64,000 bases of DNA from Alphaproteobacteria bacterium (GCA_045614025.1 JAZLCE010000017.1:3875-67874); one strand, 5' to 3'; numbered from the stretch's first letter, positions 57,134 to 61,494 are shown. A program made the numbers and translations. The notes: generated from the sequence alone by a model not told the origin.

Positions 57134-57220
57134 GCCTCTATGGCGAAACTGGTAGACGCGACAGACTCAAAATCTGTTGACCGCAAGGTCATGCTGGTTC
57201 AAGTCCGGCTAGAGGTACCA
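57134..57220 (+). tRNA. tRNA-Leu (anticodon CAA)
   Basis: Acceptor GCCTCTA/TAGAGGT, anticodon arm ACAGA-CTCAAAA-TCTGT, long variable arm, T-arm GCTGG-TTCAAGT-CCGGC, encoded CCA. Confidence 0.9.
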
Positions 57221-57358
57221 AAAATTAAAACCACCCACATCGGGTGGTTTTTTTATTCCTTTTCAAACGCTTATGCCGGTTCGATAATAGTTCGATTGTG
57301 GAGGGCTTGTTTTGGAAGTTTATCGAACTTTTAGGAGGATATTTTGCTATAAAACAGG
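57215..57358 (+). repeat. att-like repeat, copy A (tRNA-Leu 3' end + hairpin + about 105 bp)
   Basis: GTACCAAAA + terminator hairpin + TTTTTTTATT. Then 57280-57358 matches 59822-59900 at 63/79 positions ungapped (counted by hand). Confidence 0.8.
57227..57254 (+). terminator. Intrinsic terminator after tRNA-Leu(CAA)
   Basis: CCACCC-ACATC-GGGTGG-T7. Confidence 0.8.
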
Positions 57359-57500
57359 CGCTTGTTCTGAGTGAAATTTCAGTTGAGATCCCATGATTAA
57401 AATGAGAAATATATAAAAAAATAATGAAATTAAAAAAAATACATGCTATGCTTTCTCAAAATCAAAGGCAAATTGTTTTAAATTTCGAAAGGAATTGTCC

Positions 57501-59630
57501 ATGAATAGATGTTTGTACCATAGCAACTTTTCTACTTTTTTGCATATGCCTGATGGGGAGGTATTAGGCATACTTTGTGAAGCTTACCATGGTGTGACTC
57601 TTACCACTACAATTGAAGCTTGGAAATCAGAAATATCTATAATAAAGAATATTCTTAAAAATATTGATGATGAAAATGGACAGATTATTTTTGAATATGA
57701 TATTCCTCGTCTTGGTAAACGTATCGATGTTGTATTATTAACAAAAGGGATTGTATTTTGTTTAGAATTCAAGGTTGGTGAATCTGAAATATTAGAAGTT
57801 AATATAGATCAAGTATTAGATTATGCTCTTGATTTAAAAAATTTTCATAAATATAGTAAAGATAAATTGATAGTTCCAATATTGATTGCAACTAATTACC
57901 AATACTCATCGTCAGAAATAAAAATGTCAGTATATGACGACCGTGTCGCAAATCCTCTTGTTACTGGTGAACATAATTTATTACAATTGATTAATGATGT
58001 TATTCAAAAATATCCAGATGAATCAACTGTTGACCTCAATTGGGTTATTAGTCCATATGCCCCAACACCTACGATAATTGAAGCAGCAAGAACTCTTTAT
58101 GAAAACCATTCTGTTGGAAATATTACACGTCACGAAGCTGATAAAGTCACTACTGATCAAACCATTTCATATATTATGAGTGTTATTGAAAAAAGTAAAT
58201 TAAATCAGGAAAAGAGTATATGTTTCGTTACAGGGGTTCCTGGTGCAGGGAAGACATTAGTCGGATTAGATGTTGCAATTAAACAAACTTATCATAATGG
58301 AGACAAACCTAATAAAGAGGATGGTGCTGTTTATTTGTCAGGAAATGGACCATTAGTTGCAGTATTGACTGAAGCATTGGCACAAGACAATTTTATGAAA
58401 TGTCGTTCAAGAGGAGAAAAAAAGAAACTATCAGATTCTCGTAGAGAAGTTTCTAAATCAATCCAAATGATACATCGATATAGAGATAATATGCTGGCTA
58501 AGATTGTTAATCCAGTCCAAAACGGTAAATTGGAAATTGATCCACGAAAGGCTGTTGAAAATGAAGAATCTGGGTTTGGCGAAGTTGAGCATATTGCCAT
58601 TTTTGATGAGGCTCAACGTTCTTGGACACATAAAAGACTCGCCGATTATCTTAAAAGAGGTGGAACGTATGGAAATAAACTGAAAGTTCCAAATTTTCCA
58701 ATGTCTGAGGCTTCTTTTCTTATCTGGTCACTTGATCAAAGAAAAGATTGGGCAACAATAGTGTGTCTTGTTGGGGGTGGTCAAGAAATAAATACGGGAG
58801 AAGCCGGTATTTCAGAATGGATCAAGGCTCTCAAAGAAAATTTTCCTTTATGGAAGATATATATATCTCCTAAATTGACTGATGATGAATATGCCGAAGG
58901 AAAAGTAAATGAACTTTTAAAAGATAATTTAAATGTTAAATACGAGGAAAAACTACATTTGGGAGTGTCTTTAAGATCTTTTAGAGCGGAAAAACTATCT
59001 GCATTCGTTCATGCATTGTTGTCTTTTAATAGCAATGCTTCAGTTCTTTTTGACGACATAAAATCTAGATATCCGATAGTTATTACTCGTGATATGGAAA
59101 AAGCCAAAAGATGGGTACATGAAAAAGCAAGAGGAAATGAACGTACAGGTGTTTTGGTCTCTAAAGAGGCAGCTAGATTTAAACCACTTGGAATTCATAT
59201 TTTGCCCTCAGGAGATGAAAATGCTGTTCATTGGTTCTTGGAGGATAAAGTTGACACCAGATCTTCAAATTATTTAGAAGATGCAGCTACAGAAATTCAG
59301 GTTCAAGGATTAGAATTGGACTATTCATGCGTTTTATGGGATGCAGATATGCGATACGAAAATGGTAAATGGCATTTTTATCGTTTTAATGGTAAAACCA
59401 AATGGAATGAACAGACTGGAAAAACAGAAAACAATAGAGAACTTCAAAAGTATATGTTAAATGCATATCGAGTATTGCTTACCCGAGCTAGATTAGGAAT
59501 GGTAATCTGTGTCCCTCAAGGCAATTTGAATAAAACTGCTAGTGGGTTTTGGGAAGATAGTACCCGCTTACCAGAGTTTTATGATAATACGTTTAATTAT
59601 TTAAAAGGGCTAGGTATCCCAGAAATATGA
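57501..59630 (+). CDS. DUF2075-like protein: PD-(D/E)xK-like N-domain + P-loop/SF1-helicase-like core
   Basis: GKRIDVVLL...VFCLEFKVG (D...ExK), Walker A GVPGAGKT, Walker B IAIFDEAQR, and C-terminal YRVLLTRARLGMVI (SF1 motif VI-like). ATG at 57501 after AAGGA. Confidence 0.7.
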   Translation: MNRCLYHSNFSTFLHMPDGEVLGILCEAYHGVTLTTTIEAWKSEISIIKNILKNIDDENGQIIFEYDIPRLGKRIDVVLLTKGIVFCLEFKVGESEILEVNIDQVLDYALDLKNFHKYSKDKLIVPILIATNYQYSSSEIKMSVYDDRVANPLVTGEHNLLQLINDVIQKYPDESTVDLNWVISPYAPTPTIIEAARTLYENHSVGNITRHEADKVTTDQTISYIMSVIEKSKLNQEKSICFVTGVPGAGKTLVGLDVAIKQTYHNGDKPNKEDGAVYLSGNGPLVAVLTEALAQDNFMKCRSRGEKKKLSDSRREVSKSIQMIHRYRDNMLAKIVNPVQNGKLEIDPRKAVENEESGFGEVEHIAIFDEAQRSWTHKRLADYLKRGGTYGNKLKVPNFPMSEASFLIWSLDQRKDWATIVCLVGGGQEINTGEAGISEWIKALKENFPLWKIYISPKLTDDEYAEGKVNELLKDNLNVKYEEKLHLGVSLRSFRAEKLSAFVHALLSFNSNASVLFDDIKSRYPIVITRDMEKAKRWVHEKARGNERTGVLVSKEAARFKPLGIHILPSGDENAVHWFLEDKVDTRSSNYLEDAATEIQVQGLELDYSCVLWDADMRYENGKWHFYRFNGKTKWNEQTGKTENNRELQKYMLNAYRVLLTRARLGMVICVPQGNLNKTASGFWEDSTRLPEFYDNTFNYLKGLGIPEI

Positions 59631-59742
59631 TAATGTATGAAAAAAGCTTATAGTGCTATACCGAGTCTATGTTCTGAATTAAAATTTCAAAAGATCCGCT
59701 GCGCCAACTTTTTGAAATCCTCTAAATGTTTGGCTCGATATT

Positions 59743-59900: not shown

Positions 59901-59958
59901 TGGATATATCAGTTTAAGTTCAACTGGTCTCAAAATTTATTTTAAATAAAATAACATA

Positions 59959-59987
59959 TTGAGTTTTATCAAATGCGTTGATATAAT
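59959..59987 (+). promoter_or_regulatory. Sigma70-like promoter of the cassette 2 gene
   Basis: TTGAGT-N17-TATAAT with TG at the extended -10 position. Confidence 0.55.
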
Positions 59988-60019
59988 GGTCAAAATAAGA
60001 CTAGAAAAGGGAGTGAAAA

Positions 60020-61435
60020 ATGAATTACATCATATTAGGATTTTGTATTGGTTATTTTATTTCAAGTGGGTTGATATATTTTTTATTCTTTAAACACTTT
60101 TTAAAGCCAGATTCTGATATTGCAAAACGTATTGAGTGCTTTACAAATGACATAAATAAACAGAAAAGAGTTGGATTTTTTAATGTGTGGGCATTCTGCT
60201 TTTCTTCATATTACTTTTTATATGCTAGATTATCGAGGATGTGTATACTATTTTTTACGCTTCCTTGGATATTAGCTATACTTTTGATTTTTGTTGTTGA
60301 TCCTGATATATCACTTTTAATTGGATTTATAATTTCGCATCTTATTGCAGGTTTTACAGCAAATCGTCTTTGTCAAAAGTATAAGAAAAATTACATTTTA
60401 AAGTACAAAGATGCTGATCCAACAAAGCCTGTGTTATATCGTCCTGTTAGTATTAAAAGATTGATTATTATGAATTTTTTGACGTCAGGTATATATTCGA
60501 TCTATTGGAGTTATAAAAACTGGCGAGCATATCAAATTGAAACAAAAGATGATGTGAGTCCTTTTTTTCGTTCATGGTTTTGTAACTTAACCATGTGCGA
60601 TTTATTCTTCAAGATGACAAGAACAATGAAGTTAAAGATAGCGTATAAAAAATATGGTTTTTTGTTTTTTATTTTGACTGCCTTAGAGGTTTTTCTGGTT
60701 CATTTTTCTAAAAAAGGTGAATTTAGTATCGAAGTGCAAGGATTGTTAGTTTTAATATCTTTGTTTTTTATGCCTATCTTAATCACTTTAATTTGTCTTG
60801 TGCCTGTACAAAAGATTATTAATCAATATGCAAAACAATCTTTTAAATGTGATGTTGATAAAAAGTTTTATATAAGTGAAATTTTATGGTTGATATTCGT
60901 CATATCAGTTAATTTTATTATTTTGTTTGGTAATCCATTTCTTGAAAAAGAGTTAAAACAGACAACGCAACTCTCTGTTCTTGCTACTAGTTTTTCTGGA
61001 GATGAATTGAAAAAAGTTTCCTCTTCTTTGGGATTTATTCATAGGCATGTTAATGGATACGCTGAAGTTTGTTTGAAGGAAAATTATGAAATGAAAAAGT
61101 ATCCGAATGATTTTGTTAAATTGTTGAGAGATGATATATTTGAATTGCAAAAAAAATTAGAGAAAAAGGGTGTGTCATTAGATCAAGCTTTGAATGAATT
61201 AAAAGGAGTAACTCAATTTTCTAGAATTATGTATCAATCTATTTATGCGGAGTTTAATTTGTTACAGCGTTATGAAGTAGCTAAACAGAAAAATATACCT
61301 GTTGAAGAGGTTAAATGGAATGATGAATTAGATAATCAGATGTCTTTTCAGGATGTATGTAAAATATTTGATGAAGTTGGGATTGAATTTCTTAAGAAGA
61401 ATGAAAATAGATATTTTTTAAAATCAAATTATTAG
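60020..61435 (+). CDS. Multi-pass membrane protein with DUF4234-like segment and soluble C-terminal domain
   Basis: About 8 hydrophobic segments, an FLTSGIYSIYWSYKNW motif, and about 170 aa of hydrophilic C-terminus. GGGAG SD. Confidence 0.6.
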   Translation: MNYIILGFCIGYFISSGLIYFLFFKHFLKPDSDIAKRIECFTNDINKQKRVGFFNVWAFCFSSYYFLYARLSRMCILFFTLPWILAILLIFVVDPDISLLIGFIISHLIAGFTANRLCQKYKKNYILKYKDADPTKPVLYRPVSIKRLIIMNFLTSGIYSIYWSYKNWRAYQIETKDDVSPFFRSWFCNLTMCDLFFKMTRTMKLKIAYKKYGFLFFILTALEVFLVHFSKKGEFSIEVQGLLVLISLFFMPILITLICLVPVQKIINQYAKQSFKCDVDKKFYISEILWLIFVISVNFIILFGNPFLEKELKQTTQLSVLATSFSGDELKKVSSSLGFIHRHVNGYAEVCLKENYEMKKYPNDFVKLLRDDIFELQKKLEKKGVSLDQALNELKGVTQFSRIMYQSIYAEFNLLQRYEVAKQKNIPVEEVKWNDELDNQMSFQDVCKIFDEVGIEFLKKNENRYFLKSNY

Positions 61436-61494
61436 CTCGGTATTCATAAAGCCGGCTGTACCAAAAATTAAAACCACCTATTTGGGTGGTTTTA
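61435..61494 (+). repeat. att-like repeat, copy C (degenerate tRNA 3' half + hairpin)
   Basis: GCTCGGTATTCATAAAGCCGGCTGTACCAAAAATTAAAACCACC-TATTT-GGGTGGTTTT. Shares CCGGCT..GTACCAAAAATTAAAACCACC with the tRNA end, and homology stops after the hairpin. Confidence 0.75.

What the first reader, a model, noticed from the sequence alone, without database searches (positions are those of the whole stretch)
57134..61494. Two integrase-less single-gene cassettes stacked at tRNA-Leu(CAA), bounded by three copies of the tRNA 3' end
Seen: the 3' end of tRNA-Leu(CAA) plus its terminator hairpin (GTACCAAAA..hairpin..TTTTTTTATT) recurs at 59756 and 61458. Downstream of copies A and B the sequence stays homologous for about 105 bp, with 63/79 identities ungapped for 57280-57358 vs 59822-59900. 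Upstream of copies B and C there is a second shared block (GCTCGrTATTC..TAA....GCTGTACC). Sequence to the right of copy C is unrelated. Inference: shared left ends, shared right ends and displaced degenerate tRNA 3' halves are what successive site-specific integration of two related elements into one tRNA att site would leave. The units are only about 2.5 and 1.7 kb. Each carries one cargo gene, and cassette 2 has a recognisable sigma70-like promoter of its own. No integrase, excisionase or transposase is present in the window, so any mobility would need a recombinase acting in trans. This resembles a miniature tRNA-targeting cassette system rather than a classical genomic island.
Basis: partly seen in the sequence, partly recalled or inferred. 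Interest (0 to 1): 0.8.

Follow-up and report, generated by a model that had tools for sequence, protein, structure and literature searches.

The report
Integrase-less gene cassettes stacked at tRNA-Leu
Two small gene cassettes without a recombinase of their own sit one behind the other at the end of a leucine tRNA gene. They belong to a family of interchangeable cassettes found at this same tRNA in many uncultured gut Alphaproteobacteria, so this is a compact variant of a known kind of integration hot spot.

Summary
tRNA-Leu(CAA) (57134-57220) ends in GTACCAAAA plus a terminator hairpin, and that unit recurs at 59756 and 61458. Copies A and B share a ~100-nt downstream block (D). Copies B and C share an upstream block (U).

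Relatives settle the interpretation. The same tRNA-core-[D-cargo-U]-core-[D-cargo-U]-core layout occurs at tRNA-Leu(CAA) in 14 species-level MAGs of animal-gut Alphaproteobacteria and in several metagenome contigs. There are about 40 junctions and at least 13 cargo types. A near-conspecific of the window carries a different first cassette. Another species carries the window's cassette 1 at 97-99% identity while its flanks are only 79% identical. D never occurs away from this tRNA or a U-core junction.

Cargo 1 is a candidate anti-phage gene (PADLOC PDC-S41). No tyrosine recombinase is detectable in the window. In relatives, a 583-aa DUF6538-type integrase island occupies the same tRNA end, and a decayed copy ends in a standard U.

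Best reading: CIME-like, att-flanked mini-elements stacked by site-specific integration and moved in trans, then heavily reshuffled by homologous recombination. The recombinase and current activity are inferred, not shown. This is a new variant of a known kind.

The parts
57084..57111 (+). Promoter of tRNA-Leu(CAA): TTGACA-16-TATAAT, 12 of 12 matches
57134..57220 (+). tRNA-Leu(CAA), the integration target (attB side). It keeps its own body. Only its last 6 nt are shared with the junction repeats.
   Evidence: The same tRNA lies next to the same SDR gene in all relatives.
57215..57223 (+). Core copy A: GTACCAAAA (tRNA 3' end plus AAA), the attL-type junction
   Evidence: GTACCAA is essentially invariant across about 40 junctions.
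57227..57251 (+). Hairpin A, an intrinsic-terminator-like stem-loop of type 1
57256..57358 (+). D block of cassette 1 (left end). It has two direct boxes, GTTCGATAA at 57279 and GTTCGAT at 57290. It has one inverted box, TTATCGAAC, ending at 57329. A shared tail, GATATTTTGYTATAAAACA, follows.
   Evidence: nhmmer E 3e-20; alignments; box census
57501..59630 (+). Cargo 1: 709-aa protein with a Schlafen group 3 / DUF2075 helicase domain. It matches the PADLOC candidate single-gene defence family PDC-S41.
   Evidence: Pfam PF09848 E 8e-67; PADLOC PDC-S41 E 3e-242. Near-identical cassette in L032 and homologues in L012 and L023.
59671..59755 (+). U block of cassette 1 (right end, subtype b), with the invariant box GCTCGATATTCG at 59733
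   Evidence: nhmmer E 1e-16; alignment
59756..59764 (+). Core copy B: GTACCAAAA, the junction between the two cassettes. It has the structure an attP would have.
59768..59790 (+). Hairpin B, terminator-like, type 2
59798..59900 (+). D block of cassette 2 (left end)
   Evidence: nhmmer E 1e-16; 63/79 identities to D of cassette 1
59959..59987 (+). Promoter-like site of cassette 2: TTGAGT-17-TATAAT, preceded by TG
60020..61435 (+). Cargo 2: 471-aa multi-pass membrane protein (weak DUF2628 match), function unknown
   Evidence: A homologous cassette flanked by D and U occurs in L019. No PADLOC, NCBIfam or PHROGs hit.
61370..61457 (+). U block of cassette 2 (right end, subtype c). It overlaps the 3' end of cargo 2. 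The box GCTCGGTATTC is at 61435.
   Evidence: nhmmer E 6e-15; alignment
61458..61466 (+). Core copy C: GTACCAAAA, the terminal attR-type junction
   Evidence: 95% identical to the terminal junction of L001.
61464..61499 (+). Hairpin C, a perfect 15-bp inverted repeat of type 1. It is probably the original terminator of the tRNA and also ends the convergent flank gene.
   Evidence: (I12)
61498..62643 (-). Conserved chromosomal right flank (381 aa, no family match). It marks the end of the array.
   Evidence: homologue in L001 directly after its terminal junction

Best explanation
The region is a tandem array of two non-autonomous, att-flanked mini-elements (cassettes). They are inserted at the extreme 3' end of tRNA-Leu(CAA), a lineage-wide integration hot spot in uncultured animal-gut Alphaproteobacteria.

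Cassette structure. Each cassette reads: core GTACCAAAA; a terminator hairpin; a ~95-125-nt left arm D; the cargo, in either orientation and with its own promoter; then a 35-130-nt right arm U that abuts the next core. D carries three copies of a GGTTCGATAA-like box, two direct and one inverted. U ends in a related box, GGCTCGGTATTCG, about 12 nt before the core.

What is shown:
- The layout is tRNA-core-D1-cargo1-U1-core-D2-cargo2-U2-core-flank.
- The same ends bracket at least 13 different cargoes in at least 15 genomes.
- The same cassettes occur in different array positions and in different species.
- Cassette content differs between near-conspecifics.
- One cassette has recently crossed species.

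What is inferred:
- A circular cassette carrying U-core-D as its attP recombines with the GTACCAA core at the tRNA end, or at a resident junction.
- The enzyme would be a tyrosine integrase supplied in trans. The most likely source is the DUF6538-type integrase islands that target the same tRNA end in relatives and share the U-type right end.
- The newest arrival would sit next to the tRNA and push older cassettes outward.
- Homologous recombination between the conserved junction modules then reshuffles hairpins, D blocks and cargo alleles.

The array acts as a small rack of accessory and defence genes.
For: Anatomy and significance in the window.

Same architecture with other cargo in relatives: L001 and L011; 14 MAGs; L027-L029.

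Cassette recurrence:
- The three-gene WYL/UDG/DnaB_C-like cassette occurs in 8 loci.
- The MFS cassette occurs in 6.
- The window's cargo 1 occurs in L012, L023 and L032.
- The window's cargo 2 occurs in L019.

Boundaries. Same-cassette pairs in different contexts are 87-100% identical inside. U stays at 80-96% up to the core. Identity drops to 55-68% immediately after the core, so the right boundary is sharp.

Polymorphism. L031 (SDR 97% aa) carries the three-gene cassette at position 1.

Horizontal transfer. Window 57337-59745 is 97-99% identical to L032, while the flanking SDR region is 79% identical.

Functional constraint on the ends. U subtype a is about 95% identical over 130 nt between cassettes of species whose SDR proteins are only 55-75% identical. 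The box G[TC]TCG[AG]TA occurs 4 times in the 64 kb, all within the junctions.

Crossover position. U is not a usable tRNA 3' half; it shares only GTACCA with the tRNA. The crossover must therefore lie in or next to the core.

Recombinase candidates.
- A 583-aa DUF6538+PF00589 integrase with a DUF6626 partner sits directly after this tRNA in L006-L009. The left-end sequence of that island also follows the tRNA in L002 and L004, which encode the same SDR protein as L001.
- In L024 it lies upstream of a D array.
- In L021 a decayed copy (DUF6626 pseudogene, no integrase) ends in a standard U.
- Paralogues of the integrase sit at tRNA-Thr, tRNA-Gly and tRNA-Asp. Each has the layout integrase, about 300-nt arm, hairpin, tRNA end. 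Three direct arm repeats are evident in the tRNA-Thr example.

Not phage or plasmid borne.
Against: - No integrase was found with D-type arms. No D-type cassette carries a recombinase in any locus examined.
- No empty site (tRNA joined directly to the flank) was seen in about 25 contigs.
- No circular cassette was found. L028 is not circular.
- The left end does not travel cleanly with the cargo. In the 97-99% identical window/L032 pair the hairpins are of different types and D is only about 80% identical. High identity starts at the end of D.
- Hairpin type, D type and the last 12 nt of U assort semi-independently. D tracks the downstream cargo only weakly (79.6% vs about 74.5%).
- The resemblance between D boxes (TTCGATAA, TTCGATTG) and the integrase-arm motifs (CCCGATAA, CCCGATTG) was noticed post hoc and is weak.
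- Most comparison sequences are metagenome assemblies, where repeats can cause misjoins.
Confidence: 0.68

Rival explanations
1. Fossil junctions shuffled only by homologous recombination. On this view the cassettes are decayed remnants of classical integrase-bearing islands that once integrated at the tRNA. Today the ~230-nt junction modules serve only as portable homology. RecA-dependent crossovers between them delete, duplicate, swap and import cassettes, and no site-specific recombinase acts on them any more.
For: - Mosaicism is rampant. Hairpin, D and the last 12 nt of U assort independently of cargo. Even the coding part of the three-gene cassette is a patchwork of two haplotypes.
- Decay of integrase islands into integrase-less remnants is directly visible in L021 and L001.
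- No recombinase is present in the window.
- U subtype a is long enough (130 nt) and similar enough (about 95%) for homologous recombination.
Against: - Specific short boxes and the 7-nt core stay essentially invariant while the sequence between them varies. That is the pattern of protein-binding sites, not of homology tracts.
- D copies are only 74-80% alike over 95 nt, a poor substrate for RecA.
- The right boundary of shared cassettes falls at the core in every comparison.
- More than 13 unrelated cargoes have acquired the same two ends, which simple decay of different islands does not predict.
Confidence: 0.24
2. Local, non-mobile origin. On this view the tRNA-downstream region was tandemly duplicated and unrelated genes were later inserted between the copies. 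The repeats would then be paralogous intergenic DNA, not att sites.
For: D and hairpin copies are direct repeats in a single locus. No mobility gene is present.
Against: - The same cassette is 97-99% identical in a species whose flanks are 79% identical.
- The same cassettes occupy different positions and combinations in different species.
- Near-conspecifics differ in cassette content.
- U has no counterpart upstream of copy A, as attL/attR logic predicts.
Confidence: 0.03
3. A generic dispersed intergenic repeat (REP- or MITE-like, or a conserved terminator or regulatory module) that happens to lie near this tRNA.
For: The blocks are short, non-coding and contain hairpins and inverted repeats.
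Against: - There are no further copies in the 64-kb window.
- Across 185,579 species genomes the D pattern hits only 15 stretches. All are in gut Alphaproteobacteria MAGs, at tRNA-Leu(CAA), behind a core junction or inside such an array.
- No Rfam family matches.
Confidence: 0.02

Closest known systems
CIMEs (cis-mobilizable elements) and tandem accretion at tRNA genes, e.g. ICESt1/ICESt3-related elements of Streptococcus thermophilus (review PMC5704250)
   Same: Both are elements that keep attL and attR but have no integration or transfer genes. Both sit in tandem at the 3' end of a tRNA gene and accumulate by successive site-specific integration into a resident att site. Their mobility depends on a recombinase from another element.
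   Different: CIMEs are described as one-off decay products of particular ICEs or IMEs, usually several kb long. Here there is a whole family of 0.6-3-kb units with standardised ends, bracketing at least 13 unrelated cargoes in many species. No integrase-bearing parent with the same left arm has been found. The host clade is uncultured gut Alphaproteobacteria, and no conjugation genes are involved.
Tycheposon-built genomic islands of Prochlorococcus (bioRxiv 10.1101/2020.12.28.424599)
   Same: Both involve tRNA-targeted elements stacked next to a tRNA and separated by partial tRNA copies. In both, new arrivals push older ones outward, degenerate integrase-less remnants accumulate, and the cargo is adaptive or defence genes.
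   Different: Tycheposons carry their own tyrosine recombinase and replication module, and their remnants lack clear boundaries. Here the integrase-less units have precise, conserved boundaries on both sides. Only 6-9 nt of the tRNA is repeated.
Integron gene cassettes
   Same: Both are arrays of small, mostly single-gene units separated by a conserved recombination module. Cassettes are reshuffled between arrays and species, and no recombinase lies inside the cassette.
   Different: There is no IntI, attI or Pc next to the array, which is anchored on a tRNA end instead. The junction module of about 230 nt has a terminator and boxes rather than a folded attC. Cargo lies in either orientation with its own promoter.
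pdif modules and IMEX elements, which are integrase-less modules that use host XerC/XerD
   Same: The concept is the same: small single-gene modules with no recombinase of their own, bounded by short recombination sites and moved by an enzyme encoded elsewhere.
   Different: The sites here are not dif-like. I saw no 11-6-11 inverted arrangement around the core, by inspection only. The target is a tRNA 3' end, which is typical of phage-type integrases rather than Xer.
ssrA-targeted genomic islands in tandem in Dehalococcoides (PMC3146451; only its title and abstract were seen)
   Same: [quoted passage not shown]
   Different: The paper was not read beyond its abstract, so island size, integrase content and any tandem arrangement were not compared.

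Membership tests
tRNA-targeted integrative island (tyrosine-integrase type) | Inserted at the 3' end of a tRNA gene and bounded by a direct repeat of that end | tested here: met
   GTACCAAAA occurs at 57215, 59756 and 61458. The repeat is short, only 6 nt of the tRNA plus AAA.
tRNA-targeted integrative island (tyrosine-integrase type) | Encodes its own integrase next to an att site | tested here: not met
   No PF00589-like domain is found in any six-frame ORF of the window. Each cassette holds one cargo gene.
tRNA-targeted integrative island (tyrosine-integrase type) | Variable presence or content among related genomes at the same site | tested here: met
   L031 (near-conspecific), L001, L011, L032 and 13 further MAGs carry other cassettes between the same repeats. 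No empty site was seen.
CIME (cis-mobilizable element) | Retains attL and attR | tested here: met
   Core copies, a D left arm and a U right arm are present on both cassettes.
CIME (cis-mobilizable element) | [quoted passage not shown] | tested here: met
CIME (cis-mobilizable element) | Derives from an ICE or IME by deletion | tested here: inconclusive
   Decay of DUF6538-integrase islands into integrase-less units that end in U is seen in L021 and L001. Those have a different left arm. No integrase-bearing parent with a D arm was found.
CIME (cis-mobilizable element) | Excises and transfers together with, or by means of, an element integrated alongside | not testable with these tools
   This needs read-level junction data or an experiment.
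Integron | An intI integrase gene with attI and Pc adjacent to the array | tested here: not met
   The array starts at a tRNA with SDR, YfgM-like and BamB-like genes upstream. No tyrosine recombinase is present in 64 kb.
Integron | Cassettes end in attC sites and are mostly promoterless and co-oriented | tested here: not met
   The junction is U-core-terminator-D. Cargo occurs in both orientations. Cassette 2 has its own promoter.
IMEX / pdif module | Bounded by dif-like XerC/XerD sites (two ~11-bp inverted arms around a 6-8-bp spacer) | tested here: inconclusive
   No such symmetry is visible around the core in the alignments. This was inspection only. The dif site of this clade is unknown.
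Tycheposon | Own tyrosine recombinase plus a replication or packaging module | tested here: not met
PADLOC PDC-S41 (candidate single-gene defence system), for cargo 1 only | Full-length match to the family profile | tested here: met
   E 2.8e-242 covering residues 1-709. The Pfam SLFN-g3 helicase domain matches at E 8e-67. Anti-phage activity itself was not tested.

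The most novel reading that the evidence does not exclude
The tRNA-Leu(CAA) locus of these gut Alphaproteobacteria may be a dedicated, integron-like cassette platform. 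It would hold a family of non-autonomous cassettes with standardised ends. The left end would be a terminator, three T-arm-like boxes and, for forward cargo, an outward promoter-like tail. The right end would be a 35-130-nt arm ending in a fourth box. A trans-acting tRNA-Leu-specific DUF6538-type integrase would actively capture, stack and exchange the cassettes across species. The locus would then be a tRNA-anchored rack for defence and accessory genes, distinct from both integrons and classical islands.
Probability: 0.3. Interest if true: 0.75.

Novelty: new variant of a known kind. Interest (0 to 1): 0.55.

Why it matters
It shows how small-genome, uncultured gut Alphaproteobacteria exchange single accessory and defence genes without carrying a recombinase in each element. 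Uniform, very small att-flanked cassettes pile up at one tRNA end and are shared between species.

If a single trans-acting integrase moves them, this would be a second, independently evolved solution to the problem that integrons solve. Its conserved ends (U-core-D) would give a simple sequence tag for mining strain-variable cargo from metagenomes, including candidate anti-phage genes such as PDC-S41.

If the cassettes are inactive, the locus is still a clean natural example of accretion followed by shuffling through homologous recombination.

Tried and rejected
1. The small ~195-aa tyrosine recombinase ('f193') as the array's dedicated recombinase. It lies near array ends in L015, L018 and L024, with a pseudogene in L020. 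Its family has 272 clusters at E <= 1e-10, and the 120 listed are 68-97% identical to the query. In another subclade it sits inside a different mobile element near tRNA-Gln, with no U, D or tRNA-Leu. Rejected as specific to the arrays.

2. A second site-specific crossover at the end of D (TTTATCGAAC). The window/L032 and L001/L031 breakpoints suggested this. However, the coding part of the three-gene cassette is equally mosaic, so general homologous recombination explains the pattern without a second site.

3. A crossover in the T-loop, with U as a displaced functional tRNA half. Rejected because U shares only GTACCA with the tRNA. True tRNA 3' fragments of 17-19 nt occur only at junctions next to recombinase-bearing elements in L018 and L024.

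4. Phage, satellite or plasmid origin. U and D patterns have no hits in IMG/VR. The junction has no blastn match in the plasmid or phage collections.

5. A known RNA family in D or U. Only the tRNA scores; the other Rfam matches are far below threshold.

6. An excised circle. The 1.5-kb contig L028 has two junctions, but they are only 82% alike, so it is not circular.

7. The JGI metagenome scan gave only 3 short contigs.

8. The exact SDR protein of the window is not in the contig index, so the source assembly itself could not be retrieved.

9. The shared arm motif between D boxes and integrase arms is enriched in the integrase arms of the L007/L024 group. It was defined post hoc and is kept only as a lead.

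Full report
**1. The observation**

The window has a tRNA-Leu(CAA) at 57134-57220. It is driven by a consensus promoter, TTGACA-16-TATAAT, at 57084-57111. Its last six bases plus three A's (GTACCAAAA) are followed by a terminator-like hairpin at 57227-57251. The same core plus a hairpin recurs at 59756 and 61458.

Within the 64-kb window:
- Copy A matches copy B over 144 nt (76%, E 6e-24).
- Copy A matches copy C over 37 nt (89%, E 1e-7).
- The sequences upstream of B and C match over 64 nt (72%, E about 1e-3).
- None of these blocks has another copy in the window.

Only GTACCA is tRNA sequence.

**2. Anatomy**

I call the block downstream of the core and hairpin 'D' and the block upstream of the core 'U'. 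The layout is:

tRNA | core | hairpin A - D_A - cargo 1 - U_B | core | hairpin B - D_B - cargo 2 - U_C | core | hairpin C - chromosomal flank

This is what two successive integrations of elements with attP = U-core-D into the tRNA end would produce (attL = tRNA-core-D; attR = U-core-flank).

- Cargo 1 (57501-59630) has a Schlafen group 3/DUF2075 helicase domain. It matches the PADLOC candidate defence family PDC-S41 over its full length (E 3e-242).
- Cargo 2 (60020-61435) is a membrane protein of unknown function. It has its own promoter-like site.
- GC content of the cassettes is like the rest of the window.

**3. Relatives**

Homologues of the SDR gene left of the tRNA led to contigs of related organisms. 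All have the same tRNA next to the same genes.

- L001 (SDR 85% identical) and L011 (74%, an NCBI MAG) have the same repeats but other cargo.
  - L001: WYL + UDG-like + DnaB_C-like | MFS + a 506-aa ORF | small ORFs.
  - L011: a DUF4379 protein | MFS | MFS fragments.
- L001's terminal junction and right flank match the window's copy C and flank at 95%.
- An exact-pattern scan for D in one genome per species (185,579 species) gave 15 stretches in 14 MAGs. All are labelled Alphaproteobacteria. Where the isolate name gives a host it is an animal gut (yak, sheep, roe deer).
- In every case D lies about 40 nt after tRNA-Leu(CAA), after a U-core junction or a tRNA-fragment-core junction, or inside an array.
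- In all I collected about 40 junctions and arrays of one to at least four cassettes.
- Cargo families: NUDIX, acyltransferase 3, GT2, GNAT, an Asp/Asn-tRNA-synthetase-like gene, MFS, DUF4379, a lipoprotein, PDC-S41, the window's membrane protein and the three-gene cassette.

This rules out a generic dispersed repeat.

**4. Evidence that cassettes are discrete, exchangeable units**

- The same cassettes recur in different positions and combinations. The window's cargo 1 is in L012, L023 and L032. Its cargo 2 is in L019.
- For same-cassette pairs in different contexts, identity is 87-100% inside. It stays at 80-96% through U up to the core and falls to 55-68% right after the core.
- L031 has an SDR protein 97% identical to the window's and flank DNA 94% identical. 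It has the three-gene cassette, not cargo 1, right after the tRNA.
- L032 has flank DNA only 79% identical. It carries cargo 1 plus U at 97-99% identity in second position, behind a GNAT cassette. That is recent horizontal transfer of the cassette.
- U subtype a is about 95% identical over 130 nt between cassettes of hosts that are far apart.
- The box G[TC]TCG[AG]TA occurs four times in the 64 kb, all in the junctions. So the ends are under constraint.

**5. What does not fit a simple model**

- In the window/L032 pair the hairpins are of different types and D is only about 80% identical. Near-identity starts at the end of D and fades about 12 nt before the right core.
- Across all junctions, hairpin type, D type and the last 12 nt of U assort semi-independently of the cargo on either side. 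D tracks its downstream cargo only weakly (79.6% vs about 74.5%).
- I considered a second crossover site at the end of D. However, the coding part of the three-gene cassette is itself a patchwork of two haplotypes. Frequent homologous recombination between homologous cassettes is the simpler explanation.
- No empty site and no cassette circle were found.

**6. Recombinases**

No tyrosine recombinase domain is detectable in any six-frame ORF of the window. I used a profile built from 91 sequences, and the best E-value was 0.47.

In relatives, a 583-aa integrase (DUF6538 + PF00589) with a small DUF6626 partner sits directly after this tRNA. It is seen in L006-L009. The left-end sequence of that island also follows the tRNA in L002 and L004, which encode the same SDR protein as L001. 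So the site is polymorphic for an integrase island within one lineage.
- In L024 the integrase lies just upstream of a D array.
- In L021 a decayed copy (DUF6626 pseudogene, integrase gone) forms a cassette that ends in a standard U.
- L001's third junction has the same left-end type.
- Paralogues of this integrase sit at tRNA-Thr, tRNA-Gly and tRNA-Asp. The layout is the same each time: integrase, about 300-nt arm, hairpin, tRNA end. Three direct arm repeats are evident in the tRNA-Thr example. D mirrors this geometry.

This makes the tRNA-Leu-specific branch of that integrase family the best candidate for a trans-acting enzyme. No integrase with D-type arms was found, and the motif resemblance is weak.

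A second, ~195-aa recombinase found near some arrays is widespread in other contexts. I rejected it as array-specific.

**7. Comparison with known systems**

- The closest concept is the CIME, together with tandem accretion at tRNA genes (PMC5704250). These are elements that kept attL and attR but lost their integration genes, and that accumulate by integration into resident att sites.
- Tycheposon islands show the same stacking and decay at tRNAs (bioRxiv 10.1101/2020.12.28.424599).
- The features here that differ from those descriptions are the uniformity and small size of the units, the conserved ends bracketing many unrelated cargoes across many species, and the absence of any integrase-bearing parent with the same left arm.
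- It is not an integron. There is no IntI, attI or attC, cargo lies in both orientations, and cassettes have their own promoters.
- Nothing ties it to phages or plasmids.

I therefore rate it a new variant of a known kind.

**8. Verdict**

The best explanation (0.68) is a site-specifically assembled array of integrase-less cassettes, mobilised in trans and reshuffled by homologous recombination. The main rival (0.24) is that the junctions are now only homology tracts. Interest is moderate (0.55). It is a tidy, previously undescribed cassette family in an uncultured clade, but the principle is known.

Noticed in passing
window 27532-27800: The last 18 nt of tRNA-Pro(TGG) (27532-27608), ATCATGTCGCCCCGACCA, are repeated at 27747-27764. 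Each copy is followed by its own terminator-like hairpin. Only about 115 nt of non-coding filler lies between the first hairpin and the repeat. It looks like an almost empty att-flanked remnant of an island at a second tRNA.
   Followed up: partly
L018 2036-2930; L024 409-3030; L007 5162-7876; L015 5145-6020: Two recombinase modules are each found on either side of a core: the 583-aa integrase with DUF6626, and the 195-aa recombinase with a 589-aa partner. They always point towards the core. When the module lies upstream, the junction carries a true 17-19-nt tRNA-Leu 3' fragment (e.g. TCCGGCTAGAGGTACCA) instead of U. This suggests a crossover further inside the tRNA for those elements. The core contains the palindrome GGTACC.
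   Followed up: partly
window 57279-57329, 59733, 61435; all D and U copies in L001-L032: The conserved boxes of D (GGTTCGATAA) and U (GGCTCGGTATTCG) resemble the canonical tRNA T-arm sequence GGTTCGAAT. They also resemble the CCCGATAA/CCCGATTG motifs in the att arms of the tRNA-Leu-type integrase islands. They may be arm-type binding sites.
   Followed up: partly
L001 7239-9713 (locus coordinates); also L014, L015, L018, L021, L022, L027, L031: A three-gene cassette is the most frequent cassette, always in the same orientation. It encodes a WYL regulator, a UDG-like protein and a DnaB_C/AAA_25-like ATPase. It may be an uncharacterised defence system. Only the WYL protein hits PADLOC strongly; the ATPase has a marginal hit (mad8, E 5e-5).
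   Followed up: partly
L023 (reverse strand), ORF of 432 aa: A class II aminoacyl-tRNA-synthetase-like gene (tRNA-synt_2 + OB fold, E 2e-73) lies between a truncated U and a full U in an array. It appears to be carried as accessory cargo.
   Followed up: no
L034 10001-12166; L039 2806-5340; L040 1608-3669: Paralogues of the DUF6538 integrase sit at tRNA-Thr(GGT), tRNA-Gly(CCC) and tRNA-Asp(GTC). L034 shows three direct TGTGTTACA repeats between the integrase gene and the tRNA end. This is one integrase family with several tRNA specificities in a single clade.
   Followed up: partly
P0216-P0335; L041-L045: The ~194-aa catalytic-domain-only tyrosine recombinase is unusually conserved. The 120 listed of 272 clusters are 68-97% identical to the query, and one sequence is indexed in 354 blocks of the contig collection. 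In another subclade it lies in a mobile region with serine recombinases, Ank proteins and type I restriction S-subunit genes.
   Followed up: partly
window 61498-63196 (- strand): The two genes right of the array (381 and 205 aa) have no Pfam match but are conserved in L001. Relatives carry Ank-repeat and Fic proteins nearby, which hints at a host-associated lifestyle.
   Followed up: no
L001, L014, L015, L018, L021, L022, L027, L031: first 300 nt of the three-gene cassette: The alignment shows a patchwork of two haplotypes switching every 30-100 nt, including inside coding sequence. This indicates very frequent homologous recombination between cassette alleles in these populations, or assembly of mixed strains.
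   Followed up: partly
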